Positions 106 to 61,190 of a DNA stretch of 64,000 nt are shown piece by piece. How positions within the stretch are numbered: position 1 is the stretch's first letter; the number at the start of each line of letters is the position of its first letter. The notes beneath the pieces were generated by a model that saw only the letters and a program-made list of their open reading frames with translations, did no database searches and was not told the DNA's origin. The position numbers and the translations under genes are program-made. Source of the stretch: an uncultured Gammaproteobacteria bacterium (GTDB taxonomy: Bacteria; Patescibacteriota; Patescibacteriia; VMEV01; CAYQCH01); the NCBI GenBank assembly GCA_964503955.1, contig CAZDCG010000001.1:316210-380209 (forward strand), read 5' to 3'.

Positions 106-221
106 AGGGGGCTACTGTTCTTAGATTGAATTGATTTATCTAGAGTTTATAGGTTTTAGTTTATAGGTTTTAGCCAAGGGTTGAAACTGAAAACTACAAC
201 CTAAAAACTACAACCTAACCT
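106..221 (+). promoter_or_regulatory. rpmI-rplT intergenic leader with two short tandem duplications (tttataggttttag x2; aaaactacaacctaa x2) and no SD before rplT
   Basis: Direct reading of the sequence. The last 13 nt, aacctaacctATG, are shared with the trpS upstream region. Confidence 0.3.
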
Positions 222-5125: not shown

Positions 5126-5371
5126 AGCTGATTTTCAGACAAAAGAGCGCAGGAGATTCTCGACTAGACAAGGCCCGCAAATCCTGCTAATTTATGGATG
5201 ACCCACCACTTTGAGGCGGGTCTTTCTTTCTAAAAACTCGACTTATTTTACTGCTAGTTCAGATGCAGAACGAGGAAGAAATGAGTACCGGACCGAAGCG
5301 ATCGTGAGTGATCGCAGAGGGAAGCACGGAATTTCTGACGAAGTGCTGCGCTGAAATCGCAGTAAAAGCAT

Positions 5372-5447
5372 GGACCGGTGGTGTAGCGGTTAACATGCCT
5401 CCCTGTCACGGAGGAGATCGCGGGTTCGATTCCCGTCCGGTCCGCCA
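5372..5447 (+). tRNA. tRNA-Asp (anticodon GTC)
   Basis: GGACCGGTGGTGTAGCGGTTAACATGCCTCCCTGTCACGGAGGAGATCGCGGGTTCGATTCCCGTCCGGTCCGCCA. The cloverleaf, CTGTCAC anticodon loop, GTTCGATTC T-loop and encoded CCA are very close to E. coli tRNA-Asp. Confidence 0.9.
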
Positions 5448-6628
5448 CGAAGAGCCCCGTATTCACGGGGTTTTTCGTTTTGGGGCGCGGGCGTGTTGCC
5501 CACGGGTTGCCCAAGGATTGCTGAAGTCGGCGCCAGTGTCGGCGTGAGCGGCCCCAACTGGAAGACGAAGGACGATACCTCTCGCGCCGGCGAGAGCGGC
5601 CGACGGTCAAGCCGATCGACGAACTCCTTGAGGCGAGAGGGCTCGAGGTGGCTGTAGCGCATGGTGACCCGAATGTCACTATGGCCCAGCAGTTCCTGCA
5701 CGACCTTGAGGTGAGCGCCCGTTGCCACGAGGTGCGAGGCGAAGGTGTGGCGCAGTACATGCCACCCGACTTTGCGGAGGCCGGCAGCGGCGCACGCTTG
5801 CTTGAGCACGCGCGCCATGGCGTCTTGGTCCGAGTGCTTGCGGCCCGCGTCTTGCCCGAAGACAAAGCCCCTGCGGTGCGGCCATGCCCTCAGTGCTTCC
5901 TTCACGTCCTCGCTGAGCGGCACGTGGCGGATCTTGTTGCTCTTGGGAGGGCCGAGGCGGCGTCTCACCAGTGCCCGCCTCACCGTCAGCAGGCTCCCCT
6001 CGAGGTCGACGTCGGACCAGTCCAGCGCCAGCAGCTCTCCCAGGCGGAGCCCGGTGCGCATGGCGACGAGCACGACTCCACGCCAGAACGTGTCCTTCAT
6101 GCTCCGCAAGAGACGTTCGCTCTCCTCCAGCGTGAGGAAGTCGAACGCCTGAGGTGGAACGGGAAGAAGCCGGATCTTCGGGCGGCGGTCGAGCTCGCCC
6201 CACTCCTCGGCAATGCTAAGAGCCCGGCCGAGGGCGGCCAGGTAGTTGTTGACGGTCTTGGGCGCATAACCCTCTGCGCGCCTCGCCGCCTTGAAGCTCT
6301 CGATCAGCTTGGGGGAGATCTCATCGAGCCCGCACTCCCCGAAGAAGGGCAAGAGCTGACGGTCCAGAATAGACCGCTTCGTGCGCTGCTCGGAGTGGCG
6401 GTTGTTGGGCACGACGTACTCTCGGTACCACCGCTCGGCGAACTCCGCGAAAGTGGTGGCCTTGACGACAGGTGCGTCTGGATCAAAGCCGAGCGCGAGC
6501 TGGCGGCGGAAGTAGGTTTCGTACGCGGCAGCGCCCGCCCGGCTGCTTTCCGGGCTCTTGCGGCGATAGCGGATGCCAGCGTGGCGGAAGTCAATCCACC
6601 AGCGGTTGCGGATCTTGCGAGCGCTCAT
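5390..6628 (-). CDS. int: tyrosine-type site-specific integrase (phage-integrase family)
   Basis: Core-binding and catalytic domains with R...HVLRHTFASHLV (HxxR)...RVTMRYSHL (catalytic Tyr). The ORF runs with no stop through the att core and into the tRNA on the opposite strand, so the last ~60 codons are probably not authentic or reflect the recombinant junction. Confidence 0.9.
   Translation of the reverse strand: MSARKIRNRWWIDFRHAGIRYRRKSPESSRAGAAAYETYFRRQLALGFDPDAPVVKATTFAEFAERWYREYVVPNNRHSEQRTKRSILDRQLLPFFGECGLDEISPKLIESFKAARRAEGYAPKTVNNYLAALGRALSIAEEWGELDRRPKIRLLPVPPQAFDFLTLEESERLLRSMKDTFWRGVVLVAMRTGLRLGELLALDWSDVDLEGSLLTVRRALVRRRLGPPKSNKIRHVPLSEDVKEALRAWPHRRGFVFGQDAGRKHSDQDAMARVLKQACAAAGLRKVGWHVLRHTFASHLVATGAHLKVVQELLGHSDIRVTMRYSHLEPSRLKEFVDRLDRRPLSPAREVSSFVFQLGPLTPTLAPTSAILGQPVGNTPAPQNEKPREYGALRGGPDGNRTRDLLRDREAC
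5424..5448 (+). repeat. attL core (within tRNA-Asp 3' end)
   Basis: Exact 25-nt match to 9326-9350. Confidence 0.85.
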
Positions 6629-7635: not shown

Positions 7636-7975
7636 GTCAGGAGGTCTGGAGTCTGGAGGAGGTGCGCGCCCACTTCCGGCGCCGCCTCGACGCCTACGTC
7701 TGCGAGGTCATGACCGAGCGCGCGTCCGCGCGCGCGGCGCTGGCCCCCAGGAAGGCCGACGATCGCAGCGCGACACTCCCCTACGGCTGCGGGACCTACT
7801 GGCTGGTCCGCTTCCACGGCGCGTCATGCGAGCACGCCCCGCCGGCCTGAGCGGCGAGCCGGGCCGCCGCGACGCGAGGCGCCCGGCGCGAGCGAGCTCG
7901 ATTGCGCGGCGCGCAGGCCGAGCGTGGATCGACGGAGCGCTGGAGCTCGCGGACGGCGCGGCAGTACCTGCCCAC

Positions 7976-8611
7976 TCACTGACCAGGACGAGGCGGAGCA
8001 TGCGCGAGAGCACTGAACTCGCCTACGTTCTGCATGGCATAATCAATAAGGCAATCATAAACGCGATCGCACTCGCCCTCAAAATTTAGAAACACCCTAC
8101 CCACAACGGTATCCTCCAAGCGCCCGTCGTATGCCCCGATACTCTCCAAGAACTCTCGACGTGCGTCGAGGTCTAGATGGGGATTTGGCCCTGGGAATGC
8201 GGCTACCGCCTCCGCCAAGTAACGAGCGGCATCGCGTGCCCCTATCTCCTCCAATGCCTGCACAAAAACAGAATACGACGGATTCCCGCCCCCGGCGAGA
8301 AGGTAGCAGTAGGCGTCGAGCAGAAACGGCTTGGCCTGGTCGAAGTCGAGCCAGATCAGGGCGTCAGCAATTTGACACCGCTCGCCAAAGTCGGCAAAAT
8401 CAAGAACGCTCACGTGGGGTGTTTCCTCGTGGGCCAGGATCCAGTTTACGCTGGACCTGGGGTAGCAGGTGGCTCCACCGCCTGCTGCCCGAACCCAGCA
8501 CTTGATCCCCCTGGCAGCCCTGGCGCAGTCAGGGGGTTTTCGTTGCAGGAGGGCGTGATCGATAGGCCGAGGGTGCTGCACCCGGCAAAAACAACGGACA
8601 GCATGGCACAA
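7976..8611 (-). CDS. island cargo, hypothetical protein (likely starts at the internal GTG near VSVLDFADF; ~145 aa)
   Basis: Conserved-looking region ...LDFADFGERCQIADALIWLDFDQAKPFLLDAYCYLLAGGGNPSYSVFVQALEEIG...; the N-terminal part of the long ORF is Cys/Arg-rich junk typical of wrong-frame GC-rich DNA. Confidence 0.4.
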   Translation of the reverse strand: MCHAVRCFCRVQHPRPIDHALLQRKPPDCARAARGIKCWVRAAGGGATCYPRSSVNWILAHEETPHVSVLDFADFGERCQIADALIWLDFDQAKPFLLDAYCYLLAGGGNPSYSVFVQALEEIGARDAARYLAEAVAAFPGPNPHLDLDARREFLESIGAYDGRLEDTVVGRVFLNFEGECDRVYDCLIDYAMQNVGEFSALAHAPPRPGQ

Positions 8612-8727
8612 ATAACGGCGATGACGGCTACTTTGCTAGTCGAGCCACCACTCTCGCGGCCAGTGGTCTGTGCATAGCCCTTGACAGTTAAGGAATTATG
8701 AACCAATCTCTGCCTAGAGTCGCTCAC
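8446..8727 (-). CDS. possible small lipoprotein (signal peptide + FAGC lipobox), island cargo
   Basis: Alternative frame overlapping the 5' end of the previous ORF: ...KVAVIAVICAMLSVVFAGCSTLGLSITPSCNENP... has a classic n-h-c lipoprotein signal; ends just before the probable GTG start of the downstream gene. Confidence 0.25.
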   Translation of the reverse strand: MSDSRQRLVHNSLTVKGYAQTTGRESGGSTSKVAVIAVICAMLSVVFAGCSTLGLSITPSCNENPLTAPGLPGGSSAGFGQQAVEPPATPGPA

Positions 8728-9325
8728 CTTTGTCCTCCCGTGGAAGGGTGCGCGATCCGCTGCTCCGGGAGCACCAGATCCGCCACCTGTGGCCTTGCTC
8801 CAGGTGCGTCAACACCCGGGGCTCGCGGCTCAGCGGCCCCCGAGGTCTACAGCTTCGGGGGTCTTCTCGCGCGAAAACCGATCTGACGATTCCGTGTGTC
8901 GGGCCCAGAGTCAACTGATTTCCCAACGACAGAATGAAAACCTCTCCACACCTTCTCAACGTCCGAGGCAGGGGCGCGTAACGCGCTGTTCTGTCAGGCC
9001 TTGCTCTTCGCGCGCGGTGGAGAGCAGGGCGAGAGTGACCAGGGCACAGACGGACAGGAGTCGCCTCCCTCGCTCCCGCTGCGAGATCGTCTTGTGGGAC
9101 GAGAGAGCAGTCGGACGAGATCCCACCGAGTCAGCGACTTGGCACCTGTGGCCGGTCTGGTCGTCCATGAGCTCCGGCGTTGACCGTTGCCCACCGATTG
9201 CCCAGGAAGTGCGGATTCAGCGGGGAAACAGCGCTGAACTGACCTGAGCTGAGAATCTCGATTCTGAGCTAAGGTTAGAGGAATTCCGCTAGAGCTAGCG
9301 ACGCTTCCGCTTTCGCCTCCTGCGC

Positions 9326-9350
9326 GTTCGATTCCCGTCCGGTCCGCCAC
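9326..9350 (+). repeat. attR core (duplicated tRNA-Asp 3' end)
   Basis: Exact 25-nt match to 5424-5448 with no tRNA body upstream of it. Confidence 0.85.
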
Positions 9351-9413
9351 AGAGCCACTCAGCAATAGCTGGGTGGTTTTGTTATACTGCACAGGGCTTT
9401 CTTATTTAGCCTC

Positions 9414-10421: not shown

Positions 10422-10910
10422 GATTTTTTACCAAAATAGCTGCGCACAGCCTATCTACTCCAGATTCAATATCGGCGTTCTGTCTTATCCTTCGATACCC
10501 CTCAACGAGAAAAGGGAAATTGCCACCCAAAACGAACAGTGCTCCCCTCGACCGTGACTGATCGAGAGAAGCACCGATGATCATGGACTGCGAGAGCTTG
10601 CGGCCGCGCGGACCGCTCTGGCCGCCGCCAGCGTTGTCGCCCTTGCAGCAGATATGGCTTTCGTGCATCTCGCTTGTGGACAGCAACTGCGGTTGAGTCC
10701 CTTCAGGGTGGACATACGGCACCAAACCATCCCGCAACCATCTATTAGGCGCAGGACATCAAAGAATAGAACCTCTTAAGAAACTCGTCAAGGAATAAAG
10801 CCAGTCTCATTGCTTACCTTGACAATCCCCTTATTTTTGCCTACTCTCGTTGAACACCTCCTTTCTGAAAAGCGATGTCTGTCTCATCTTTTTTCAGAGA
10901 GGAGGTCTTT

Positions 10911-11123
10911 ATGACCGCGAGATACCAGGACACTCCGATGATCGAAGACGGGTCGACGACCGAGGCCTACACCGAGGACGACCGCGTGCACATGATCTGC
11001 TGCATCGAGCGCGGCCGGCGAGCGGGCAGCTGCTTCCGCCCCCGGCTGAGCACCAAGAAGCAGACTGACCGTACTTCGCGCCGCCTCAACGCCGAGCGCT
11101 CCCCGGCGCTCACCACCATCTAG
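10911..11123 (+). CDS. small GC-rich protein (70 aa) with consensus promoter and SD-sequestering leader
   Basis: TTGACA-17-TACTCT promoter at ~10819-10848; the leader cctcctttctgaaaa...ttttcagagaggagg can pair to occlude the GAGAGGAGG SD; ATG 7 nt after the SD; peptide carries an HMICC motif. Confidence 0.4.
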   Translation: MTARYQDTPMIEDGSTTEAYTEDDRVHMICCIERGRRAGSCFRPRLSTKKQTDRTSRRLNAERSPALTTI

Positions 11124-15128: not shown

Positions 15129-15739
15129 GACGGCCCCTTTCTTATTTTTGCCGAATCAACCATCATGCGGATGCAAACGATAAACGTCAACGAAACAGGG
15201 CCTTGTTTTTGACAAAATGTGATGACGAAAGCCCGTGGGGGGGCCAGGTTTCTAAAACAAACGAACTTTTCAGACTCATAGAAAATGACTATCTTCACAT
15301 CGTCACCCCCGCGGAGAAAGTTACTCTTTGCGAAGCAAAGTCTAAACATCGCCAGCGGGGGTCTCATTCTTTAAGAGGCATCGAACAGCCCCCCTCACTC
15401 AGTTGATCTCTTTCGATGCTTGATCCCGTCCCCCCTAAACAGGGGGAAGAGTAGGTGGAGGTATACGGAGAAGCGGAGGGATTATAAAGCCTATTCGGGC
15501 GCGGGGCTCCCTCCTTCGCTAAAGGCTTCGGCGGGCACGCTGTCTCCGCCCGGCACTATTACGTGAAATGGTAAAAATGCTTCACTGTATTGAGCTCCCA
15601 AAGGAAAGATCTGAAACCTGAATTCTGAATTCCGGATCTCTATCTGAGGCGGCTCAGAGTCAGAATTCCGATCCAGATTTCAGAATCCAGAGAGAATCTT
15701 CATTCTGACTGCCAAACGATTCCCTAAGAAAGCACGAAC

Positions 15740-24703: not shown

Positions 24704-25232
24704 TATGAAACCCAAAGTCACCTTAATCATGGCCATGACGGCGGACGGCTTTATCACCAAGCATGAAGACGGCCTCGTGAACTGGACCTCCAAAGAAGAT
24801 AAAAAACATTTCTCCGAGCATACCAAACGCATCGGAGCCATGATCTATGGCAACGCGACGTTTAAAACGTTTAATAAGCCGCTGCCGGGCCGGCTGAACA
24901 TAGTCATGACAAGAACACCGGAGAAGTTTACGCCTATCCCGGGCCAGCTTGAATTCAACAATGCCGCGCCGGCCGAGCTTGTCAAAGAGCTTGGCGAACG
25001 CGGCTACAAAGAAATCGCGCTTACCGGCGGAAGCGACATCAACGCGCTTTTTCTCAAAGAAGATCTGGTCGACGAAATTATCCTCACGATTGAGCCTCTG
25101 CTTTTTGGCAGCGGCAAATGTTTATTTGCTCCCCTCAAAACCGAGAAACAGCTTGAGCTGGCTGCCATTGATAAACTCAATGCGAATACCATCGCTCTTC
25201 ACTACAAAGTAAAACGCCAGCATGCAAGTTAA
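24704..25232 (+). CDS. folA: dihydrofolate reductase
   Basis: KVTLIMAMTADGFI...GRLNIVMTR... DHFR motifs; ATG overlaps the thyA stop (classic thyA-folA coupling). Confidence 0.8.
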
Positions 25233-25653
25233 TATCCACCGCATTGATAAATCTTTGCCCTTGCCCGAGTACCATTCAGCGGGAGCAGCCGCATTTGACC
25301 TCTATAGCCGGATTGACATTGTCTGCCCGCCGCAGGCAATCACGCGGATTCCAACCAATCTGATCATTGAAACGCCGGAGGAATACGCGCTCATTGTCGC
25401 GCTGCGCTCAAGCAGCCCCAAACGCAAAGGATTGCTGCACCCGGCCGGCCCAGGCATTGTTGATTCCGATTACCGCGGCCCTGAAGACGAAGTGCATGTG
25501 CAGGTTTACAACTTTACCGATCAGGAAGTCACGATTGAAAAAGGCGAGCGCTTCGCCCAGGCCATGTTTACCCCCGTTCCTAAAGTAACCTTTAACGAAA
25601 TCGACCAGGTCTCTTCGCAATCACGCGGCGGCTTTGGATCAACCGGAGTATGA
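25222..25653 (+). CDS. dut: dUTP diphosphatase
   Basis: AGAAAFDLY, GIVDSDYRG, RFAQ motifs of trimeric dUTPase. Confidence 0.9.
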   Translation: MQVNIHRIDKSLPLPEYHSAGAAAFDLYSRIDIVCPPQAITRIPTNLIIETPEEYALIVALRSSSPKRKGLLHPAGPGIVDSDYRGPEDEVHVQVYNFTDQEVTIEKGERFAQAMFTPVPKVTFNEIDQVSSQSRGGFGSTGV

Positions 25654-25709
25654 AATTAGGTCTGTAGCCTTTGCCTACAGCCTACGACCTACTGCCTATC
25701 ACCTGATTT

Positions 25710-26855
25710 ATGGCTTCAGACGATCTCCTCTCCCGCTTTGACGCTTTGCTCGCGCCCTATGCCGTGCACAATGCAGGCGACCATCACCGCGCGTACAAAG
25801 AAGACGCACATCCCGACAAACTGCCGTTCGCGCGCGACCGGGATCGTATCGTGCATTCCAAGGCATTTCGCAGACTCAAACATAAAACCCAGGTAATCGT
25901 CAGCCCAAAAGACGATCATATCCGCGACCGCTTAACTCATAGCCTTGAAGGGGCCCAGATCGCGCGCAGCCTTTGCCGTTCCCTGCGGCTCAACGAAGAT
26001 CTAGCGGAAGCGGCCATCCTTGCCCATGATCTTGGCCATCCCCCGTTCGGCCATGAAGGCGAATACGCGCTGCATGAAATGCTTGAGCCGCTCGGATTTG
26101 CTTTTGATCATAATGCTCATGGCGAGCGCATCGTTACCTTGCTTGAGAAACAATATCCGGATTTTCCCGGATTGAACCTGACGCGTGAAACGCTGGCGGC
26201 TATTCGCAAACATCACGTACCGTGGGAAGATCCAAAAGCCACGCTGCCGCACCAGGCAAGCATTGAAGCGCAAATCGTCAATCTCGCGGATGAAATCGCC
26301 TACTACTCGCATGATATCGACGACGGGCTGCGCGCGCATTTGCTGAGAATCGAAGACCTGCTTGAATTGCAGATCGGCCGGGCCGTGCACAAAGTGATTG
26401 AAAAGCGCTATCCAAACCTTACGACCCATGACCGGCTCTATCGGCCGCAATTCGTCCGTTTCGTGATCCACCTGCTGATTGCTGACATTGTCAAAACAAC
26501 GGAACGGAATGTGCGCGACAAACAAATCTCTTCTCTGGCTGATGTCTACGCGCTTGATCATCCGGTCGCATCCTACAGCAAGCAGATGGATGACATGACC
26601 CAGGAACTGAGAAACTACCTGTATAAAACGTTCTATAGCTCTGAACCCGTTCGACGTTTCACGCAAGAAGGCCGCGAGCTTTTGCAGGAATTGTTTACGC
26701 AGCTCTATCAACGCCCGGAACATCTTCCCCAGCATATCCGCGAGCAGATCGACACCCTTGAACCGCGAGCCATTGTGGTCAAAGACTATATCGCGGGCAT
26801 GACCGACCATTTTGCCAAGGAGATGGTGTATAAGTTGAGAGGAAGCTTGGTATGA
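25710..26855 (+). CDS. dgt: dGTPase-like HD-domain triphosphohydrolase
   Basis: HSLEGAQIARSL...HDLGHPPFGHEGE HD motif of the dGTP triphosphohydrolase family. Confidence 0.85.
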   Translation: MASDDLLSRFDALLAPYAVHNAGDHHRAYKEDAHPDKLPFARDRDRIVHSKAFRRLKHKTQVIVSPKDDHIRDRLTHSLEGAQIARSLCRSLRLNEDLAEAAILAHDLGHPPFGHEGEYALHEMLEPLGFAFDHNAHGERIVTLLEKQYPDFPGLNLTRETLAAIRKHHVPWEDPKATLPHQASIEAQIVNLADEIAYYSHDIDDGLRAHLLRIEDLLELQIGRAVHKVIEKRYPNLTTHDRLYRPQFVRFVIHLLIADIVKTTERNVRDKQISSLADVYALDHPVASYSKQMDDMTQELRNYLYKTFYSSEPVRRFTQEGRELLQELFTQLYQRPEHLPQHIREQIDTLEPRAIVVKDYIAGMTDHFAKEMVYKLRGSLV

Positions 26856-27280
26856 CGGGTACAAATCACCAATCGGATACAAATTTACAAATATCCGGCG
26901 GGAAAGTCATTCACAAAGAACTAAGTTATACGATCGTAGGAATCCTGTTTGATGTTTACAATGAGCTTGGATATGGGCATAAAGAGAAGTATTATGAAAA
27001 CGCAATTGCCGTTGCTTTTGATACGAGGGGGATTAGTTATGAAAGACAAAAAAGAACGCCACTTTTCTTTCAAAATGCAAAAATAGGTGATTATTATTTA
27101 GATTTTCTCGTAGAAGAGAAAATTGTTTTAGAATTAAAGCGGGGAAATCGTTTCCCAAAATCACACATTGATCAAGTTATGGGTTATCTGAAACAGACGG
27201 GACTTCAACTGGCCATTCTCGCGACATTTTCTGTTGACGGTGTTAAGTTTCTAAGAGTTCTAAATGGAGTTAAAGAGTAG
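26852..27280 (+). CDS. GxxExxY family protein (PD-(D/E)XK-like; rRNA-IVS-associated family)
   Basis: ...ELSYTIVGILFDVYNELGYGHKEKYYENA...YYLDFLVEEKIVLELK... matches the GxxExxY family; the gene is bounded by ~36-bp terminal inverted repeats. Confidence 0.8.
   Translation: MTGTNHQSDTNLQISGGKVIHKELSYTIVGILFDVYNELGYGHKEKYYENAIAVAFDTRGISYERQKRTPLFFQNAKIGDYYLDFLVEEKIVLELKRGNRFPKSHIDQVMGYLKQTGLQLAILATFSVDGVKFLRVLNGVKE
26858..26895 (+). repeat. Left terminal inverted repeat of the GxxExxY cassette (gggtacaaatcaccaatcggatacaaatttacaaat)
   Basis: Reverse complement of 27280-27315 with 3-4 mismatches; near-identical copy at 48427-48460. Confidence 0.8.
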
Positions 27281-27315
27281 ATTTGTAAATTTGTAATGTA
27301 TTTGTGATTTGTACC
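27280..27315 (+). repeat. Right terminal inverted repeat of the GxxExxY cassette (atttgtaaatttgtaatgtatttgtgatttgtaccc)
   Basis: See the left repeat at 26858-26895. Confidence 0.8.
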
Positions 27316-29950: not shown

Positions 29951-30138
29951 CTCCCTTTCACCGCGAGTTTAACAAAGATCGCCAAATGTGGCCACAATGG
30001 ATTGTTTTTTAGGCGTTTTTCTGATAAGCTCGCTGGGAACAAGACCCGCAGACGCAACAGACTCCTTAGACTTACAGACAAGGAAAATGCGATGTCTGTG
30101 AGTCTTAAAGATCTGTGAATCTGTTATGTCTCACGTTT

Positions 30139-31672: not shown

Positions 31673-32164
31673 ATGTCACAAACCGTTGCCGATGCCATGA
31701 ACGAGCGCGTCCACGGCAATACCATCCAGGATAAAATCGACGAAGATTACAAAGCGGCCTTCAAAGCCAAGGACGAACCGAGATTCAAGGCGCTACGCCC
31801 CGTGCTTGCCAAGCTGAAACAGGAAACCATTGACCGCCGCCATGAATTATCCGATGAAGAAATCCAGCAGGTATTGCGCACGGAAATCAAAAGCCGCAAA
31901 GACGCGACTGAACAGTTTAAACAAGGCGGCCGCGAAGATCTCGTTGAGCAGGCGGCCTATGAAATTTCCTTGATTGAAAGCTATCTGCCGGCCCAGATGC
32001 CAGACGAACATCTTGAAGCGATTGTCCGCGAAACCCTGGCTGCGATTGGCGCCTCCTCTCCTGCCGATATGGGCAAAGCCATGGGAGCTGTCATGGCCAA
32101 AGTGAAAGGCCAGGCTGATGGAGGAAGAGTAAAGGCTATGGTGGAGAAAGTGCTTAATGGATAA
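31673..32164 (+). CDS. yqeY: GatB/YqeY domain protein
   Basis: ...RFKALRPVLAKLKQETIDRRHELSDEEIQQVLRTEIKSRKDA...GKAMGAVMAKVKGQADG typical of YqeY; start at MSQTVAD. Confidence 0.8.
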   Translation: MSQTVADAMNERVHGNTIQDKIDEDYKAAFKAKDEPRFKALRPVLAKLKQETIDRRHELSDEEIQQVLRTEIKSRKDATEQFKQGGREDLVEQAAYEISLIESYLPAQMPDEHLEAIVRETLAAIGASSPADMGKAMGAVMAKVKGQADGGRVKAMVEKVLNG

Positions 32165-32165
32165 A

Positions 32166-32203
32166 GCTAAAAAGCTGAAAAACTCAAAAGCTTAAAAAGG
32201 CGC
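32166..32203 (+). repeat. Left inverted repeat flanking the four-helix-bundle gene (aaagctaaaaagctgaaaaactcaaaagcttaaaaagg)
   Basis: Reverse complement of 32655-32705 (gtctttatttttttagtttttcagctttttagcttttcagttttttg) matches with a few mismatches. Confidence 0.65.
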
Positions 32204-32276: not shown

Positions 32277-32654
32277 ATGAATCATTTTATGAGTGGCGGA
32301 GCCTATAAGCAATTAGAAGACCGGACGACCATGTTTGCGATACAGGTTATCCGGTTTTGTCGTTCTGTAGGAGAAAAGCACTTATCAACAAGCATTGTTA
32401 ATCAAATAATACGCTCCGCGAGCTCTGTAGGGGCCAATTACAGAGAAGCAAACGAAGCCAAATCTCACAAAGAAAAGCTATACTTTCTTTATATCGTCAA
32501 AAGAGAGCTGAAAGAAACACAGTATTGGCTAGACGTGCTTGAGGAATTCGAAAATCCAACCATCGATTCTCAACGTAAAAACTTGCGAAAAGAGGTTACA
32601 GAATTACTAAATATTTTTATGAGTATCATTTTTTCCTTCCAAAAGAAAAAGTAA
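32277..32654 (+). CDS. four-helix-bundle protein (23S rRNA intervening-sequence protein family)
   Basis: ...IRSASSVGANYREANEAKSHKEKLYFLYIVKRELKETQYWLDVL... is the characteristic family signature. Confidence 0.8.
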   Translation: MNHFMSGGAYKQLEDRTTMFAIQVIRFCRSVGEKHLSTSIVNQIIRSASSVGANYREANEAKSHKEKLYFLYIVKRELKETQYWLDVLEEFENPTIDSQRKNLRKEVTELLNIFMSIIFSFQKKK

Positions 32655-32705
32655 GTCTTTATTTTTTTAGTTTTTCAGCTTTTTAGCTTTTCAGTTTTTT
32701 GAACT
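32655..32705 (+). repeat. Right inverted repeat flanking the four-helix-bundle gene
   Basis: See 32166-32203. Confidence 0.65.
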
Positions 32706-34954: not shown

Positions 34955-35269
34955 TTACTTGATCTTCTGGCCGATGATCCTCGACAGGTCGTGAACGAAT
35001 GCCTGCCTGAGCCGCGCGCCGCCGCTGCGGCTGCGGCGGATGAAGATGTTCATGGACAGCATGATGCGCCCATCCATCGCCTTGATCTGCTTGAGATCAG
35101 CGACATTGAACAGGCACTGGTCCTCGCTGACGGAAGCGTTGATGTCGTTGCCGAGCTCGAGCAGCTCGCCGGCCACGGTCGGGGAGAAGTTTCCCCAGAC
35201 CCTGATCCGGACATCGTCGGCATCGATCCTGGTGCAAAGTTCGTTTTCCGTGTGAGTGATCGTTTCCAT
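34955..35269 (-). CDS. hypothetical protein (104 aa) in a GC-rich patch
   Basis: Strong AGGAGG SD 7 nt upstream of ATG; no recognisable family. Confidence 0.4.
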   Translation of the reverse strand: METITHTENELCTRIDADDVRIRVWGNFSPTVAGELLELGNDINASVSEDQCLFNVADLKQIKAMDGRIMLSMNIFIRRSRSGGARLRQAFVHDLSRIIGQKIK

Positions 35270-36667: not shown

Positions 36668-36812
36668 AGAGTAGAGGGCATCTTAGAGGAAATCGGGTTT
36701 GAATTCAAGCGGGAAGACGCACAGACATAACAGACTCTACAGACGCACAGACTGTTTTTGGAAAATGTGATTTGTCTGTGAGTCTAAAACGTCTGTGAAT
36801 CTGTGCGTCTGC

Positions 36813-38228: not shown

Positions 38229-39995
38229 CTACGATCTCTCCTCAATCTCTTTTCTGACTTTCTCAATAAATTCTGCCTTCTCCATTTCCTCCGTTTGCTG
38301 CTGCCCCCTTCGGCGGATGGCAAGCTTGCCGCCGTCTTGTTCCTTATCGCCGATCACAAGAATATACGGCACCTTCATTTTCTCTGCTTCACGGATTTTC
38401 TTGCCGACCGTATTGTCAGACACATCCACAGCCGCACGGATACCTGCTGCAATAAACTCCTGCTGCAGGGTTTTAACAAAGTCCACATGCCGCTCGCTTA
38501 CAGCCAATAAACGCACCTGTTCTGGCGCAAGCCAGACGGGAAATGCGCCCGCATAATGCTCGATCAACAATGACAGGAAGCGTTCAACCGAACCGGTAAT
38601 CGCCCGATGCAGCATCACGACGCGCTCCTCTTCTCCCTTTTCATTCGTATAGGTCAGATTGAAGCGCTCAGGCAGGTTGAAATCAAGCTGAATAGTGGCC
38701 AGCTGCCAGTCGCGGCCAAGAGCGTCTTTAGCGATAAAGTCGATTTTCGGCCCGTAAAACGCCGCTTCGCCTGTTCCATCAATAAATTCCAGACCTTGGT
38801 CCTGAAGAATCCCTTTTAGCAACCCTTCCGCCCGTTCCCAGACCTCGGTATCGCCCAGATATTTCTCAGGCGCTTTTGGATCATGCGTTGAGAGGCGCGG
38901 CGTGAGCGGCATGCCAAGATTGGCATAGAGCTTACTGATGATATCGTACATTTTCAACGCTTCCTCCTTGATCTGATCCATGCGGCAGAAGACATGCGCG
39001 TCATCCTGGGTAATCGAGCGAACGCGCGAGAGTCCTTGTAATTGGCCGGTATTTTCGTCACGGTAGACGGTTGTCACTTCACTGTAACGCAGTGGAAGAT
39101 CACGATAACTGCGCGGCTGAGAGGCGTAAATCTGCGTATGATGCGGACAATTCATCGGCTTCATGATGAATTCGTCTTCGGTCATTTTCGATTTGATATG
39201 GAAAATATCATCCGCGAATTTCTGATAATGGCCGGAGGTTTTATACAAATCGGCTTTGGCCATATGCGGGATATTCACGCGCTGGTATCCATGCGGTTTC
39301 ATCAGTTCCCAGACAAAATCCGTGACAGCTTCACGCATGATAGTTCCGCGCGGAGTAAAGAGCGGCAGCCCCTGGCCGACCAGATCGGAAAAAGCGAAGA
39401 GATCAAGCTCTTTGCCAAGTTTTCGATGATCGCGCTTTTTTGCTTCTTCGCGCATGGCCAAAAACGCGTCGAGCTCCTCCTGCGTTGGAAAGGCCAAAGC
39501 GTAAACACGTTGCAGCATTTGATTGCGTTCATCGCCGCGCCAGTACGCGCCGGCAACACGATCAAGCTTGAATACGCCGGCTTCGCCGGTTTTCTGCGTA
39601 TGTCCGCCTTTGCAAAGATCGGTAAAATCGCCATGCGAATAGAAGGTGATTTTGCCGTCTTCAAGTTCATGGAGAATTTCTACTTTGTATGGCTGATTGC
39701 GTTCTTGAAAATACGCAATCGCTTCTTCCTTGCTCACCTCTCGTCCTTCAAACGGCAAATCCTTGTTAATGATTTTGCGCATTTCCTTTTCGATTTTTTT
39801 GAAATCGTCTGGAGTGAAGGTGTGGTCGGACTCAACATCGTAATAAAATCCGTCTTCAACCGCCGGCCCGATGGCCAGTTTGGTATTTGGGTACAGTTTC
39901 ATGATGGCATCAGCCATGATATGCGCCAAAGAGTGACGCATCTTTTCAATCTCGCTCATGTCTGCTGCTTTTTTTTCTCCAAAGGCTTTTGACAT
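38229..39995 (-). CDS. thrS: threonyl-tRNA synthetase (N2 editing + catalytic + anticodon-binding domains; no N-terminal TGS domain)
   Basis: HSLAHIMA editing motif, class II motifs, and the ...RDHRKLG... region; start set at MSKAFGEKK. Confidence 0.95.
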   Translation of the reverse strand: MSKAFGEKKAADMSEIEKMRHSLAHIMADAIMKLYPNTKLAIGPAVEDGFYYDVESDHTFTPDDFKKIEKEMRKIINKDLPFEGREVSKEEAIAYFQERNQPYKVEILHELEDGKITFYSHGDFTDLCKGGHTQKTGEAGVFKLDRVAGAYWRGDERNQMLQRVYALAFPTQEELDAFLAMREEAKKRDHRKLGKELDLFAFSDLVGQGLPLFTPRGTIMREAVTDFVWELMKPHGYQRVNIPHMAKADLYKTSGHYQKFADDIFHIKSKMTEDEFIMKPMNCPHHTQIYASQPRSYRDLPLRYSEVTTVYRDENTGQLQGLSRVRSITQDDAHVFCRMDQIKEEALKMYDIISKLYANLGMPLTPRLSTHDPKAPEKYLGDTEVWERAEGLLKGILQDQGLEFIDGTGEAAFYGPKIDFIAKDALGRDWQLATIQLDFNLPERFNLTYTNEKGEEERVVMLHRAITGSVERFLSLLIEHYAGAFPVWLAPEQVRLLAVSERHVDFVKTLQQEFIAAGIRAAVDVSDNTVGKKIREAEKMKVPYILVIGDKEQDGGKLAIRRRGQQQTEEMEKAEFIEKVRKEIEERS

Positions 39996-40099
39996 AGTTG
40001 CTTTTTCGTCATTCCCGCGCAGGCGGGAATCTAGAGGATTAATCTTCTTGGTGCTATGAATCGTGCTTATAAGTGTGATTTTCCATTCACGATTCCATA

Positions 40100-40335
40100 G
40101 ATTGCAAGGAATGAATAAAAAAACTCGTCTCACGATTAATCAATGATCAATCATGGGACGAGCTTTCTTGCCCGCGGTTCCACCCATATTTGCATCAGGG
40201 ATGCACGCTCATTACACCTTTTTTCTCCAAGAGTGGTATTTTCAGAGACCGAAGAGGGGGTTTGCAGCCGCGACCCACCTTCTCTAAACAACGGCTATTT
40301 CTGAAAACATGTCTCTTTTCAACGACAAAAGGTGC
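40100..40335 (-). promoter_or_regulatory. T-box riboswitch leader of thrS (candidate Thr ACC specifier; terminator/antiterminator)
   Basis: On the minus strand there is a T-box consensus ATGGGTGGAACCGCGGG (rc of 40171-40186) and a terminator ctcgtccc...gagacgag + TTTTTTT (rc of 40116-40163). Upstream there is a stem-I-like region with AGAGA and ...gaaaatACCActc... (rc of 40232-40246), a plausible specifier loop. Confidence 0.55.
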
Positions 40336-48295: not shown

Positions 48296-48426
48296 ATGTA
48301 TTTGTTTTTGTCTAAAGGTAGTATATCAATGTTGCTTATTTCTGTCAGGGGTACAGATCACGAATGCATTACAAATAGACAAAGCCTGTCAAAGCTGACG
48401 ACAAACCGTTTGTGAGATGCAGCCCA

Positions 48427-48460
48427 TTTGTAAATTTGTATCCGATTTGTGATCTGCCCC
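48427..48460 (+). repeat. Solo copy of the GxxExxY-cassette inverted repeat (atttgtaaatttgtatccgatttgtgatctgccc)
   Basis: Near-identical to the rc of 26858-26895 and to 27280-27315; lies just downstream of pheT. Confidence 0.7.
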
Positions 48461-50883: not shown

Positions 50884-51278
50884 TTCACTACAAATTACAA
50901 ATTTTACGACGAATCTACAAATCGAGATTCAATACACGCATAAACTTACACCGGAACTAGTGAAGTTTGCCAGAATCGCCAATTGTGTTTTTGTCGTTTT
51001 TAAATAATCCTTGACCTGTTGGATATTTTTTCGAGAAAAATGATTACCTTGCTTTAACTCAAGGATAATTTTTCCTTCGACCAAAAAATCAAGATAGAAT
51101 GTCCCTATTTTCTTTTCTTTAAAGAACAAACGAGCGTGTAACTGACGTTCATATTCCATTCCCTTTTCATCAAGTTATAGACTTCAAAGAGAATTTCTAC
51201 AATCTGATAACTCAATTCACTGTAAATTACCTTCTGTTCTGACACTTGTAGATTTGAAGCCAATTTGTAATTCGTAGT
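50884..51278. mobile_element. Degenerate GxxExxY cassette (inverted-repeat bounded) inserted between pheS and pheT
   Basis: Inverted repeats cactacaaattacaaatt...aatctacaaatc (50884-50925) and cttgtagatttg...caatttgtaattcgtagtgg (51245-51278) flank a truncated GxxExxY ORF. Confidence 0.65.
50929..51159 (-). pseudogene. truncated GxxExxY-family gene (C-terminal half only)
   Basis: MEYERQ...FYLDFLVEGKIILELKQGNHF...QVKDYLKTTKTQLAILANF aligns to the C-terminal half of 26852..27280; the N-terminal GxxExxY region is missing. Confidence 0.6.
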
Positions 51279-51285
51279 GGAGAAA

Positions 51286-53067: not shown

Positions 53068-54129
53068 ATGGATTCTGTGTTATCCAGCAGTCACAAGCCC
53101 CTTCCTCAAGGGCGCGACAGGAAACCACGCTGGGAGGTCTGCCGAAACGGCTGCGCCGAAATTGTATTCGCAAACGGTATCTGCATTGACTGTTTTCTTG
53201 GCGGAGTCCACGCTCTTGTTAAGAAACCCGTTTTACAGCCACCAGCACCAGCAAAACCTGAACCACCACTACCGCCGCCCCCACAAGCCTTTTCATGGAT
53301 TTGCGCTCACTGCACAGATCCGGTTTACCGCGGAATTTACTGCAAAGGGCACTGGACTTTGCTTACCCCGTCCTTTTGTGCAAGAGAGGGGTGCCGCAAG
53401 CTCATCGCCGCAGGAGATTACTGCAAAGAGCACTATGAGGAGTGGTGGAAGGAAAGGACCAGAAAGCGCGGGCAAAGCGGCTGTCTAGCGGCTGAAGTCA
53501 AATGCAATCGATCGCATAAGTCTCATGGGTTGTGCGAAAGACATTACAGCCAATTTCGAAAGCACGGCGATACATCCTACCTGCTGCCCCGGCTGCGATT
53601 GAAATGCCGCTTTCCGGATTGCGGCCGGTATCGCGGCTCAGGAGGCTATTGTTCAACGCACGCCGCTCAACTGCGCGCAACCGGAAAAACACGAGCAATC
53701 AGGCCTTCGAAAATGGCCGAATACTGTTCCATGCCGAGATGCGGACAACCCCATCACGCCAAAGGATATTGTCACGAGCACTATGGCAAATTCCTGAGAC
53801 GTAAGGGGAGAACACCCCACCCCGTCTGCGCGCATCCAGGCTGTGAACGGCGCACAACAGAGAAGTATTGCAAAACACATCGCAGACAGTTCCTCAAGCA
53901 TGGCCGCACCACTGACATACGGACAGGCCCCGTACTCTGCGAGATCCCCCAATGCGGAGGCATTCACCGCAACACCGGACTCTGCCGTAGACATACGCGA
54001 GTGCTTGAGCGTCTTGTGCGCCGCATGACGGAAGATTTCCACTGGCCAACCCCCGAGGAGCGCCAGGTTCACGCGATTGCCTTGAGTCATGGATCTCAGG
54101 TTGCAAAACGTGTCATTCTCGTCGCCTAA
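53068..54129 (+). CDS. protein with ~8 tandem C-x2-4-C-x6-9-C-x2-H zinc-finger-like modules
   Basis: Repeats such as CRNGCAEIVFANGICIDCF, CAREGCRKLIAAGDYCKEHY, CRFPDCGRYRGSGGYCSTHA, CSMPRCGQPHHAKGYCHEHY, CAHPGCERRTTEKYCKTHR, CEIPQCGGIHRNTGLCRRHT; AAAGGAG SD. Confidence 0.55.
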   Translation: MDSVLSSSHKPLPQGRDRKPRWEVCRNGCAEIVFANGICIDCFLGGVHALVKKPVLQPPAPAKPEPPLPPPPQAFSWICAHCTDPVYRGIYCKGHWTLLTPSFCAREGCRKLIAAGDYCKEHYEEWWKERTRKRGQSGCLAAEVKCNRSHKSHGLCERHYSQFRKHGDTSYLLPRLRLKCRFPDCGRYRGSGGYCSTHAAQLRATGKTRAIRPSKMAEYCSMPRCGQPHHAKGYCHEHYGKFLRRKGRTPHPVCAHPGCERRTTEKYCKTHRRQFLKHGRTTDIRTGPVLCEIPQCGGIHRNTGLCRRHTRVLERLVRRMTEDFHWPTPEERQVHAIALSHGSQVAKRVILVA

Positions 54130-54134
54130 TACAC

Positions 54135-54175
54135 CCCGCAAGCAAGGAGGAGCTCGCGGGGTGCTTCTTTTTTCT
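54135..54175 (+). terminator. rho-independent terminator (caccccgc...gcggggtg + TTCTTTTTT)
   Basis: Hairpin plus T-run after the zinc-finger gene. Confidence 0.6.
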
Positions 54176-54177
54176 CC

Positions 54178-54212
54178 CTTGACATTCCGCTTTTTATCCC
54201 GTATTCTCAATC
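54178..54212 (+). promoter_or_regulatory. sigma70-like promoter TTGACA-17-TATTCT for the small-peptide gene
   Basis: cTTGACAttccgctttttatcccgTATTCT; the same architecture as the promoter of the 10911 small gene. Confidence 0.5.
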
Positions 54213-54288
54213 ATTATTCTCCTCTCCGGTTCTCTGCTTTGCTGCCGGCAGAGAACTGGAAAATCATTTCCAGTAGAGGAGGCTGTGT

Positions 54289-54468: not shown

Positions 54469-54756
54469 CGCCCGCCGCCACCGTCGCAAGACACCAAGAC
54501 CCCGATTCGTCATCCGTGACACAAGAATCGGGGTCTTCTACGTTTCTCCCTCGTCACCTTATCCTTAATCTTCCCCTTAAACGAAAAGGAGGAGAACCTG
54601 AAGGATAAGAAAAACAAGCAACCCGCGAACTCGCTAACCCGTTAACTCGTCAACACGTTAACGCTTTTGACAAATCCCCCACCCAAACCTACGCTGTAGT
54701 TACATCCTATCAGCGGTTTTCCTACAGCCTACCTCCTACCGCCTTGAACCTAACCT

Positions 54757-61112: not shown

Positions 61113-61190
61113 TGTTCACGTGTTAATGAGTTAACGTGTTAACGGGTTTGCCTTGAACGCGTTAACTCATGAACATGCTAACCCGTTAAC

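What the first reader, a model, noticed from the sequence alone, without database searches (positions are those of the whole stretch)
25655..25709. Conserved hairpin-plus-CCTAC-word motif directly upstream of SD-less start codons (dgt, trpS, rplT)
The dgt upstream region (tctgtagcctttgcctacagcctacgacctactgcctatcacctgatttATG) and the trpS upstream region (54700-54756: gctgtagttacatcctatcagcggttttcctacagcctacctcctaccgccttgaacctaacctATG) share a CTGTAGC...CTACAGCCTAC hairpin and CCTAC repeats. rplT and trpS share the final aacctaacctATG. None has a Shine-Dalgarno sequence. These pyrimidine-rich, structured leaders may be a lineage-specific translation-initiation or autoregulatory signal for translation-apparatus and nucleotide-metabolism genes.
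Basis: seen in the sequence. Interest (0 to 1): 0.5.

Follow-up and report, generated by a model that had tools for sequence, protein, structure and literature searches.

The report
Seven-base repeats before three start codons
Three genes of an uncultured candidate-phyla-radiation (CPR) bacterium are preceded by the same run of seven-base CCTA-type repeats, placed identically relative to the start codon, but the run is missing in relatives, so it is a young simple repeat of a known kind and not a conserved regulatory signal.

Summary
The 36 bases before the ATG of dgt, trpS and rplT are (C/A)CTAnnn heptamers starting at -36, -29, -22, -15 and -8, followed by T-ATG. ATG-anchored identities are 27/36, 23/36 and 21/36. 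These are the top three of 1,711 gene pairs in the window (mean 9.3, sd 2.7).

- **Right:** the leaders lack a Shine-Dalgarno (SD) sequence and are G-poor.
- **Not conserved:** related genomes (about 140 kb) have no such arrays. Their dgt has no leader, their trpS leaders are unrelated, and their rplT has a different conserved hairpin.
- **Not a gene-class signal:** other translation genes here carry other words (rpmI GTTAAC, pheT ATTTGTA), a T-box (thrS) or no array (pheS).
- **Hairpins:** only the rplT hairpin is significant (z -4.6, against -2.2 for dgt and -1.5 for trpS).

The CCTA array is one of at least six families of 7-8-nt word repeats that fill this genome's intergenic spacers. This matches known heptanucleotide simple-sequence repeats next to SD-less start codons (TAACTGA in Beggiatoaceae, GGGAATC in Xanthomonas).

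Most likely it is a slippage-born, G-poor leader that serves SD-independent initiation. The shared register is unexplained and keeps a specific ribosome or OB-fold protein role open.

The parts
25654..25709 (+). dut-dgt intercistronic spacer, which is the whole dgt leader (56 nt, no SD)
   Evidence: dut 25222-25653, dgt 25710-26855. No Rfam match. No terminator or promoter consensus on the + strand.
25657..25684 (+). Weak hairpin of about 11 bp with one bulge on each arm (UAGG.CUGUAGC / G.CUACAGCCUA). Its 3' arm is the first one and a half CCTAC words.
   Evidence: z is only -1.5 to -2.2. The antisense strand folds better (-16.2 against -11.9 kcal/mol).
25674..25708 (+). Five tandem heptamers (CCTACAG CCTACGA CCTACTG CCTATCA CCTGATT), followed by T25709 and ATG25710
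   Evidence: TRF; register; identity
54721..54755 (+). Five tandem heptamers (CCTACAG CCTACCT CCTACCG CCTTGAA CCTAACC), followed by T54756 and ATG54757 (trpS)
   Evidence: 27/36 identical to the dgt array in the same register.
54693..54728 (+). Proposed trpS hairpin: GCTGTAG (54693-54699) pairing with CTACAGC (54722-54728), loop of about 22 nt
   Evidence: z -1.5; 17-18 of 200 shuffles fold as well. It overlaps the putative -10, so the 5' arm may not be transcribed (inference).
54667..54695 (+). Putative trpS promoter: TTGACA (54667-54672), 17 nt, TACGCT (54690-54695)
   Evidence: Read from the sequence. TTTTGACA is at the corresponding place in relatives L209 and L210. The consensus scan did not report it because the -10 matches only 3 of 6. 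Inference.
144..209 (+). Strong hairpin in the rpmI-rplT spacer. The 5' arm is 2 x AGTTTATAGGTTTT and the 3' arm is 2 x AAAACTACAACCTA.
   Evidence: TRF; fold (-26.6 kcal/mol, z -4.6, 0 of 200 shuffles). It sits where relatives carry a different conserved hairpin.
186..221 (+). rplT heptamers in the same register (ACTGAAA ACTACAA CCTAAAA ACTACAA CCTAACC T), followed by ATG222
54619..54667 (+). Context: CGTTAAC-word array (8/16-nt period) just upstream of the putative trpS -35. It belongs to a different word family.
27281..27315 (+). Context: ATTTGTA-word array in the tmk leader, directly after the GxxExxY gene. A different word family.
36700..36812 (-). Context: long hairpin built from CAGAC/GTCTG word arrays between two minus-strand genes
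   Evidence: -48.2 kcal/mol, z -6.8
61113..61190 (.). Context: divergent intergenic region made entirely of GTTAAC words

Best explanation
The three leaders carry a species-specific family of heptanucleotide simple-sequence repeats, (C/A)CUAnnn x 4-5 ending in U-AUG. It is one of at least six families of 7-8-nt word repeats in the intergenic spacers of this CPR (Patescibacteria, Parcubacteria-like) genome.

Origin (inferred): the arrays arose by replication slippage, and by copying between leaders, in spacers that are evolutionarily new. dgt gained a spacer when dut came to lie upstream of it. The trpS upstream region was rebuilt. The ancestral structured rplT leader was replaced.

Function (inferred): in an organism that starts most genes without an SD pairing, the C/A/U-rich, G-poor array is tolerated, and probably kept, because it gives a weakly structured stretch from about -36 to -1. 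The 30S subunit can load there, presumably through protein bS1, before it settles on the lineage's preferred YU-AUG start.

The array is therefore a generic SD-independent initiation region, not a gene-specific regulator. The single inverted word upstream (dgt, trpS) or the full inverted array (rplT) forms a hairpin, as in the genome's other inverted word arrays. Only in rplT is that hairpin strong enough to matter. There it occupies the position of the conserved hairpin of relatives and leaves the last 12 nt free.

Shown: the repeat nature, the register, the lack of SD, the lack of conservation and the other word families. Inferred: the slippage origin and the role in ribosome loading.
For: - Tandem 7-nt periodicity.
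- With a 15-of-20 match criterion there are 6 intergenic arrays against 0.15 expected in shuffles. Intergenic DNA is 16% of the window and holds 6 of the 7 arrays.
- Other word families are seen.
- All three CCTA arrays lie on the sense strand, abut an ATG and share one register.
- G is depleted at -20..-1 (0.19 against 0.245) and only 7 of 59 genes have an SD-like motif.
- U at -1 in 141 of 212 lineage genes.
- Arrays are absent from orthologous leaders and from about 140 kb of relatives.
- The translation initiation region (-20..+13) is predicted to be open for trpS (rank 3 of 59) and rplT (rank 9 of 59).
- CCTACNN arrays ending 0-25 nt before an ATG recur in Planctomycetota, Verrucomicrobiota, Acidobacteriota, Gemmatimonadota and CPR genomes.
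- Published precedents: TAACTGA heptamer repeats directly upstream of SD-less starts, including ribosomal-protein genes (PMC4679880). Heptameric intergenic repeats with the C-rich strand in the mRNA within 0-50 nt of the start (PMC4692102). Slippage proposed as the reason heptamers dominate (Mrazek 2007, as cited in PMC4679880).
- L20 homologues place the organism in Patescibacteria. A Parcubacteria subgroup is reported to lack the anti-SD (PMC9297842).
Against: - Neutral slippage does not predict that three independent arrays share one phase relative to the ATG (about 1 in 49 by chance), nor that all three abut a start codon.
- The dgt initiation region is only average in predicted openness (rank 34 of 59).
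- In rplT the array itself is paired (rank 56 of 59).
- No copy-number variation was seen among 3-4 metagenome samples, so active slippage is not demonstrated.
- The orientation bias of CCTAC arrays in other genomes is 36:12 under a lenient ORF criterion but 20:15 under a strict one, so it is inconclusive.
- Arrays of other word families near start codons are not G-poor (tmk, pheT).
- There is no expression or ribosome-binding evidence of any kind.
Confidence: 0.45

Rival explanations
1. Neutral simple-sequence repeats with no function. The CCTA arrays are slippage products that sit in dispensable spacer DNA. Their likeness reflects one word family spreading by slippage and occasional copying.
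For: - Not conserved in any orthologous leader.
- Many other word families in the same genome have no common theme.
- Similar arrays are frequent in unrelated metagenome loci, about 7 per 100 kb.
- The dgt and trpS hairpins are not significant.
- Heptamers are the commonest long simple repeats in prokaryotes (Mrazek 2007, via PMC4679880 and PMC4692102).
Against: - All three arrays are sense-oriented, abut an ATG and share one phase. Roughly 12% of intergenic strand positions lie within 40 nt upstream of a start, so three of three is about 0.002 by chance, and the shared phase adds about 0.02.
- The arrays are imperfect (78-82% matches) and identical across samples, so they are not freshly slipping.
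Confidence: 0.27
2. A binding platform for a repeat-reading single-strand RNA-binding protein. One OB fold (an S1 domain of bS1, or a cold-shock protein) would bind each heptamer. The protein would recruit the 30S subunit or block it, which would make dgt, trpS and rplT a small post-transcriptional regulon.
For: - Exact 7-nt period with a conserved CCUA core and a variable 3-nt tail, five units, in fixed register to the AUG.
- B. subtilis CspB binds one heptanucleotide per protein and prefers pyrimidine-rich sequence (PMC1904285).
- The same idea was raised for TAACTGA repeats (PMC4679880).
- bS1 of CPR bacteria has 3-4 S1 domains (PMC9297842).
Against: - Only three sites, in one species.
- The genes have no obvious shared physiology.
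- The neighbouring rpmI in the same operon uses another word.
- In rplT the array is base-paired.
- No candidate binding protein was identified.
- My recollection of a published CCTAC-containing Csp consensus proved wrong.
Confidence: 0.1
3. An alternative Shine-Dalgarno equivalent. CCUAC or ACCU at a fixed distance (ACCU at -9..-6 in all three) would base-pair with a divergent 16S rRNA 3' region in this CPR lineage.
For: - Fixed spacing to the AUG in all three leaders.
- A Parcubacteria subgroup lacks the canonical anti-SD motif (PMC9297842).
Against: - No positional enrichment of CCT or ACCT at -9..-6 in 212 lineage genes beyond these three.
- AGG and GGA are enriched at -12..-8 in the lineage.
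- Several ORFs in the window have a perfect AGGAGG at 5-7 nt from the start (10895, 54278 and the gene at 34955-35269), so a canonical anti-SD probably exists.
- The motif precedes only 3 of 59 genes.
Confidence: 0.05
4. A DNA-level element. The tandem heptamers would be operator or iteron-like binding sites for a transcription factor, or part of a portable promoter-leader cassette.
For: - Heptad direct repeats act as regulator binding sites in other systems, for example TTTTGAT in the V. cholerae ctxAB promoter (bioRxiv 10.1101/2021.05.14.444153, listed).
- The trpS array lies just downstream of a putative promoter.
Against: - The dgt and rplT arrays lie in intercistronic spacers with no detectable promoter.
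- A 7-bp period puts successive sites on different faces of the helix.
- The strict strand and ATG anchoring points to the RNA or translation level.
Confidence: 0.05

Closest known systems
TAACTGA heptamer direct repeats of marine Beggiatoaceae (MacGregor 2015, PMC4679880)
   Same: Tandem heptamers in forward orientation, within a few nucleotides upstream of start codons. They overlap the place where an SD would be, in leaders without an SD, and include ribosomal-protein genes. Downstream genes have no common function. The role is unproven, and bS1, Csp or CsrA-like binding has been suggested.
   Different: - Different word (CCTAnnn, not TAACTGA).
- Here the word is degenerate in its last 3 positions, and at least five other word families coexist.
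- Only 3 sites are known, against 169.
- The phylum is different (CPR).
- A shared register to the ATG was not reported there.
Heptameric intergenic simple-sequence repeats (long SSRs of Mrazek 2007; GGGAATC in Xanthomonas and GGGGAYT in Nostoc, PMC4692102; STRR heptamers of heterocystous cyanobacteria)
   Same: - Unit of 7 nt, strongly intergenic, with occasional inverted pairs that can form stem-loops.
- When the repeat is within 0-50 nt upstream of an ORF, the G-rich strand is the non-coding one, so the mRNA carries the C-rich strand.
- Length and sequence vary between close relatives.
   Different: Those repeats are G-quadruplex/i-motif candidates and are largely kept at the same loci between Xanthomonas species. 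The CCTA arrays have no G runs and are absent from the available relatives, which are much more distant.
SD-independent initiation on unstructured, G-poor leaders (Bacteroidota-type initiation; anti-SD-less Parcubacteria, PMC9297842; bS1-dependent enhancers such as the CAA/ACAAUUAC repeats of the TMV omega leader, from my own knowledge)
   Same: No SD, G-poor A/C/U-rich leader, repeated short words. It works like a landing pad for the 30S subunit.
   Different: No experimental link exists here. The lineage-wide context is U at -1, not the A-rich Kozak-like pattern of Bacteroidota.
Ribosomal-protein L20 leader (RF00558) and the E. coli rpmI-rplT operator
   Same: A structured element controlling rplT expression in the infC-rpmI-rplT operon. 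The window and its relatives both have a long hairpin that ends about 12 nt before the rplT AUG.
   Different: There is no Rfam match. The element lies between rpmI and rplT, not upstream of infC or rpmI. The window hairpin is a low-complexity repeat with no similarity to the hairpin conserved in relatives.
T-box leader (RF00230)
   Same: The usual leader of aminoacyl-tRNA synthetase genes in Terrabacteria. thrS in this window has one.
   Different: trpS has no T-box signal at E<=1.

Membership tests
Heptanucleotide simple-sequence repeat (long SSR) | Head-to-tail copies of a 5-11 nt unit | tested here: met
   TRF finds period 7/14, 2.1-3.7 copies and 78-100% matches at 25673-25704, 54721-54744 and 190-218. 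Five in-register words are visible.
Heptanucleotide simple-sequence repeat (long SSR) | Longer or more frequent than composition predicts | tested here: met
   6 intergenic arrays against 0.15 in 100 block shuffles. CTACAGCCTAC occurs twice against 0.26 expected.
Heptanucleotide simple-sequence repeat (long SSR) | Copy-number or sequence variability between strains or relatives | tested here: inconclusive
   Identical in 3-4 Logan assemblies from one study. Absent altogether in relatives with 60-85% identical proteins. No intermediate-distance strain was available.
TAACTGA-type start-proximal leader repeats (PMC4679880) | Forward orientation, ending within a few nucleotides of the start codon | tested here: met
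   All three arrays are on the sense strand and end at -2, followed by T-ATG.
TAACTGA-type start-proximal leader repeats (PMC4679880) | The downstream gene lacks an SD | tested here: met
   No GGAG, GAGG or AGGA in -20..-5 of the three leaders.
TAACTGA-type start-proximal leader repeats (PMC4679880) | The repeat unit is TAACTGA | tested here: not met
   The unit is (C/A)CTAnnn. It works alike but is not the same family.
Conserved cis-regulatory RNA (riboswitch or protein-binding leader) | Present in orthologous leaders of related genomes | tested here: not met
   dgt: gap of 0-10 nt in L124, L126 and L128. trpS: unrelated leaders in L209-L211. rplT: a different conserved hairpin in L218, L219, L220 and P0249.
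Conserved cis-regulatory RNA (riboswitch or protein-binding leader) | Thermodynamically significant structure | tested here: inconclusive
   rplT z -4.6. dgt z -2.2. trpS z -1.5.
Conserved cis-regulatory RNA (riboswitch or protein-binding leader) | Match to a curated RNA family | tested here: not met
   Rfam E<=1 gives nothing in 25550-25800 and nothing relevant in 54100-54800. The rplT and rpmI spacers give only spurious miRNA-hairpin hits.
T-box leader (for trpS) | Match to RF00230, including the conserved T-box sequence | tested here: not met
   No hit in 54100-54800. The same search finds the thrS T-box at 40151-40331 (53.7 bits, E 2.9e-11).
Shine-Dalgarno-like rRNA-pairing element | Fixed distance to the start codon | tested here: met
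   CCT at -8..-6 and -15..-13 (rplT: CTA at -14..-12) in all three leaders.
Shine-Dalgarno-like rRNA-pairing element | Enriched at that distance across the genes of the genome or lineage | tested here: not met
   CCT and ACCT show no positional peak at -9..-6 in 212 genes, while AGG and GGA peak at -12..-8.
Shine-Dalgarno-like rRNA-pairing element | Complementary to an accessible part of the organism's 16S rRNA | not testable with these tools
   There is no 16S gene in the window or in any fetched locus.
Intrinsic terminator | GC-rich hairpin followed by a U run | tested here: not met
   None on the + strand in 25200-25760 or 54450-54800.

The most novel reading that the evidence does not exclude
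The CCUAnnn heptamers are read in register by the initiating ribosome or by a repeat-reading OB-fold protein (bS1 or a cold-shock-type protein, one fold per heptamer). In that case five phased heptamers ending at U-AUG would be a modular replacement for the Shine-Dalgarno interaction. It would have evolved recently in an SD-poor CPR bacterium and would parallel the TAACTGA and CCTACNN leader arrays of other phyla.
Probability: 0.12. Interest if true: 0.65.

Novelty: new member of a known kind. Interest (0 to 1): 0.33.

Why it matters
Heptanucleotide repeats next to SD-less start codons have been reported several times (Beggiatoaceae, cyanobacteria, Xanthomonas), but nobody has shown what they do.

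This case adds two points. First, three arrays share an exact register with the start codon. Second, there is a clear evolutionary polarity: the arrays sit in spacers that are new or rebuilt compared with relatives, and in rplT they replace a conserved structured leader.

If the register holds genome-wide, it would give a concrete, testable handle on how ribosomes of SD-poor bacteria, here a CPR lineage, choose start sites. If it does not hold, the finding is an ordinary simple repeat.

For annotation, it warns against reading such low-complexity leader similarity as a regulon.

Tried and rejected
1. A genome-contig scan with CCTACNNCCTACNNCCTAYNNCCT was meant to find the source genome and its other arrays. 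It was still useful, because it shows the word is common.
3. Rfam families were searched for (T-box for trpS, L20 leader for rplT). None was found.
4. Sense-strand-specific folding, expected if G-U pairs matter, was tested. There is no consistent asymmetry: dgt and trpS fold better on the antisense strand.
5. Global lag autocorrelation of intergenic DNA showed only a small bump at lags 7-8. The arrays are a minority of the spacer DNA.
6. An array rate peculiar to this lineage was rejected. Unrelated metagenome loci show about 7 arrays per 100 kb, against 10.9 in the window.
7. A universal phase of CCTAC arrays relative to the ATG in other genomes was looked for. None matches the window's phase.
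8. Orientation bias of CCTAC arrays in other genomes was 36:12 with a lenient criterion and 20:15 with a strict one. Each criterion is biased in the opposite direction, so the result is inconclusive.
9. I recalled that a cold-shock protein consensus is ATCCTAC. I checked this and it is wrong: that string is only part of a test oligonucleotide.
10. Copy-number polymorphism among samples was checked. None was found.
11. The sigma-70 consensus scan did not confirm the trpS promoter that I read by eye.

Full report
**What is there.** The gene names hold: rplT 222-566, dut 25222-25653, dgt 25710-26855, trpS 54757-55746 (NCBIfam). CTACAGCCTAC occurs exactly twice and AACCTAACCTATG exactly twice. Clusters of CCTA exist at only three places in the 64 kb, all on the + strand directly before an ATG. 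Tandem Repeats Finder (TRF) reports period-7/14 arrays at all three.

**The shared register.** When the three leaders are written in blocks of seven anchored on the ATG, they line up:
- dgt: CCTACAG CCTACGA CCTACTG CCTATCA CCTGATT T-ATG
- trpS: CCTACAG CCTACCT CCTACCG CCTTGAA CCTAACC T-ATG
- rplT: ACTGAAA ACTACAA CCTAAAA ACTACAA CCTAACC T-ATG

Ungapped identity over -36..-1 is 27, 23 and 21 of 36. These are the three highest values among all 1,711 pairs of genes in the window (mean 9.3, sd 2.7).

**The hairpins.** Only the rplT hairpin (144-209) is significant: -26.6 kcal/mol, z -4.6, and none of 200 shuffles folds as well. The dgt hairpin (25657-25684) has z -2.2. The trpS hairpin (GCTGTAG/CTACAGC) has z -1.5. 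For dgt and trpS the antisense strand folds better, so nothing points to an RNA-specific structure.

For trpS there is a TTGACA at 54667-54672 and, 17 nt on, TACGCT at 54690-54695. TTTTGACA sits at the corresponding place in two relatives. This suggests a transcript start near 54702, which would remove the 5' arm. That is my inference, and the consensus scan did not report this promoter.

No Rfam family matches any of the three leaders. The same kind of search finds a clear T-box before thrS.

**The wider picture in this genome.** The CCTA array is one of at least six families of 7-8-nt word repeats that fill the intergenic spacers:
- ATTTGTA: 27281-27315, 48420-48460, 50885-50940, 51240-51285
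- CGTTAAC: 54619-54667, 61113-61190
- CAGAC/GTCTG in inverted arrays: 30040-30114, 36700-36812
- TCTGAAT: 15600-15700
- AAAGCTNA: 32163-32199, with its complement at 32658-32700

With a fixed criterion there are 6 intergenic arrays where shuffles give 0.15. Several form long hairpins made of words (z down to -6.8).

An overlapping assembly (L212) extends the sequence 2.5 kb upstream of the window. It shows that the infC-rpmI spacer is a GTTAAC-word array. So two adjacent cistrons of one ribosomal-protein operon are led by different words. Among translation and nucleotide genes, only rplT, trpS and dgt have CCTA words. rpmI, pheT, tmk and gatB have other words, thrS has a T-box, and pheS, infC, dut, thyA, folA and dcd have no CCTA array.

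**Who it is.** The exact proteins occur in an NCBI metagenome-assembled genome (contig of 454,799 bp) and in Logan assemblies of SRR11843815, SRR11843816, SRR11843827 and SRR11843830. Named L20 homologues at 63-68% identity are all Patescibacteria: Parcubacteria, Uhrbacteria, Falkowbacteria, Buchananbacteria. A 60-70% relative of Dgt and TrpS is labelled Parcubacteria group.

Only 7 of 59 genes have an SD-like motif, and G is depleted before start codons. Across 212 genes of the lineage, -1 is U in 67% (up to 95% in one genome), -2 is C or U, and A is enriched at -3 to -6. A minority of genes show AGG/GGA at -12..-8. A Parcubacteria subgroup lacking the anti-SD has been described (PMC9297842). 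Here a few perfect AGGAGG sites suggest that the canonical anti-SD is kept.

**Conservation test.**
- *dgt.* Relatives with 63-66% identical Dgt keep the gene order dcd-thyA-folA-...-dgt-tmk-gatB. They have other genes in place of dut, and 0-10 nt before dgt.
- *trpS.* Relatives with 70-79% identical TrpS keep pheST-...-trpS, but their leaders share nothing with the CCTA leader.
- *rplT.* Relatives with 81-85% identical L20 have a different, mutually conserved hairpin of about 125 nt in the rpmI-rplT spacer. It ends about 12 nt before the AUG. The N-terminal extension wrongly called on P0249 translates that same leader.
- *All loci.* No (A/C)CTA heptamer array exists in about 140 kb from at least six related genomes.

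So the arrays are specific to this species, and they sit in spacers that are new or rebuilt. In rplT the position of a hairpin is conserved, while its sequence has been replaced by word repeats.

**Elsewhere.** A scan of species-representative genomes found CCTACNN arrays in many phyla. Many end 0-25 nt before an ATG, for example CCTACAG x4 in a Verrucomicrobiota genome, a Hydrogenedentes genome, and CTACAACCTA arrays in CPR genomes. There is no common phase. The orientation bias is 36:12 or 20:15 depending on the ORF criterion, which is inconclusive. Unrelated trpS loci L130 and L131 have the same design with other words.

**Literature.**
- Heptamers are the most abundant long simple repeats in prokaryotes, possibly because of polymerase slippage (Mrazek 2007, as cited in PMC4679880 and PMC4692102).
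- TAACTGA repeats lie directly upstream of SD-less start codons in Beggiatoaceae, with bS1 or Csp binding proposed (PMC4679880).
- Heptameric repeats in Xanthomonas and Nostoc lie within 0-50 nt of starts, with the C-rich strand in the mRNA (PMC4692102).
- CspB binds one heptanucleotide per OB fold (PMC1904285).

**Reading.** The most likely account (0.45) has three parts:
- The arrays are slippage-born simple repeats in young spacers.
- They are kept because a G-poor, weakly structured stretch ending in YU-AUG suits SD-independent initiation.
- They act as a generic initiation region, not as a regulon signal.

Predicted openness of the initiation region supports this for trpS (rank 3 of 59) and rplT (rank 9), but not for dgt (rank 34). 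Pure neutrality (0.27) is hard to square with three of three arrays abutting an ATG in one phase. That same fact keeps a repeat-reading protein (0.10) or an rRNA pairing (0.05) open. A DNA-level operator is unlikely (0.05).

**Verdict.** This is a new member of a known kind, of modest interest. The start-codon register and the replacement of a conserved rplT leader are the parts worth following up in the full genome.

Noticed in passing
window, all gene starts; relatives L124, L126, L128, L209-L211, L218, L220: Lineage-wide start-codon context. U at -1 in 141 of 212 genes (19/20 in L124, 19/22 in L126). C/U at -2, A-rich at -3 to -6, G-poor upstream, SD-like motifs in only a minority. This could reflect an extended codon-anticodon contact (U-1 with A37 of initiator tRNA; from my own knowledge). 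It is the real candidate for a lineage-specific initiation signal.
   Followed up: partly
window 40151-40331 (-), upstream of thrS 38229-40133: T-box leader: 53.7 bits, E 2.9e-11, full-length model, but below Rfam's gathering score of 93. Its core sequence is conserved in relative L128 (18385-18706). It is a T-box in a CPR/Patescibacteria genome.
   Followed up: partly
L218 5859-6000; L219 3799-3940; L220 about 5260-5390: Relatives share a conserved hairpin of about 125 nt in the rpmI-rplT spacer (GGUUGAAAGAUUUGGAUG...CGCCAAAUAUUCCAACC). It ends about 12 nt before the rplT AUG and has no Rfam match. It is a candidate L20-binding autoregulatory leader peculiar to this lineage.
   Followed up: partly
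window 32163-32199, 32277-32654, 32658-32700; L124 15095-15129, 15160-15519, 15520-15551: In L124 a small gene of the 23S_rRNA_IVP family (PF05635) is flanked by inverted AAAGCTNA-type word arrays. In the window a 125-aa ORF at the same syntenic position is flanked by similar arrays, but it was not scanned against Pfam. The arrangement looks like a hairpin with a gene inserted in its loop, as in rRNA intervening sequences. A second IVP-family gene lies just upstream of the window (L212 56-415).
   Followed up: no
window 26852-27280; 50929-51263 (-): An intact GxxExxY/PDDEXK_3 gene lies between dgt and tmk and is followed by an ATTTGTA array. What looks like a frameshifted copy, judged from the ORF translations only, sits in a 419-nt insertion between pheS and pheT and is flanked by inverted ATTTGTA arrays. 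Relatives have 4-107 nt at that position. The ATTTGTA word family may travel with this small selfish gene.
   Followed up: partly
window 10895-11123; 54278-54468; 34955-35269 (-): Small ORFs with a perfect AGGAGG/AAGGAGG at canonical spacing in an otherwise SD-poor genome. Two of them are GC-rich and acidic. The one at 54290-54468 lies in the rebuilt region upstream of trpS.
   Followed up: no
L212 2382-2471 (90 nt, just upstream of window position 1): The infC-rpmI spacer is entirely GTTAAC-type 8-nt words: G-rich in the 5' half and C-rich in the 3' half. It folds as a hairpin (-26.1 kcal/mol).
   Followed up: partly
L130 48-115; L131 4024-4088: Unrelated metagenome trpS genes (51-52% identity) are preceded by the same design with other words: GTAATTA x3, a loop, then TAATTAC CAGTTAC CAATCTC CAATCTC T-TTG.
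   Followed up: no
L220 1762-1829 (+): Type III hammerhead ribozyme match in a relative: 41.8 bits against a gathering score of 48.5, E 3.8e-6.
   Followed up: no
window 5372-6628 and 7636-9392, 10900-11120: tRNA-Asp is overlapped at its 3' end by a 412-aa phage-type integrase gene on the opposite strand. Markedly GC-rich stretches follow. This is probably an integrated foreign element.
   Followed up: no
window 54757-55746: The NCBI annotation of this genome calls TrpS 8 codons short (321 aa, presumably from the GTG at codon 9). Relatives are 329 aa and align from residue 1, so ATG 54757 is the better start.
   Followed up: partly
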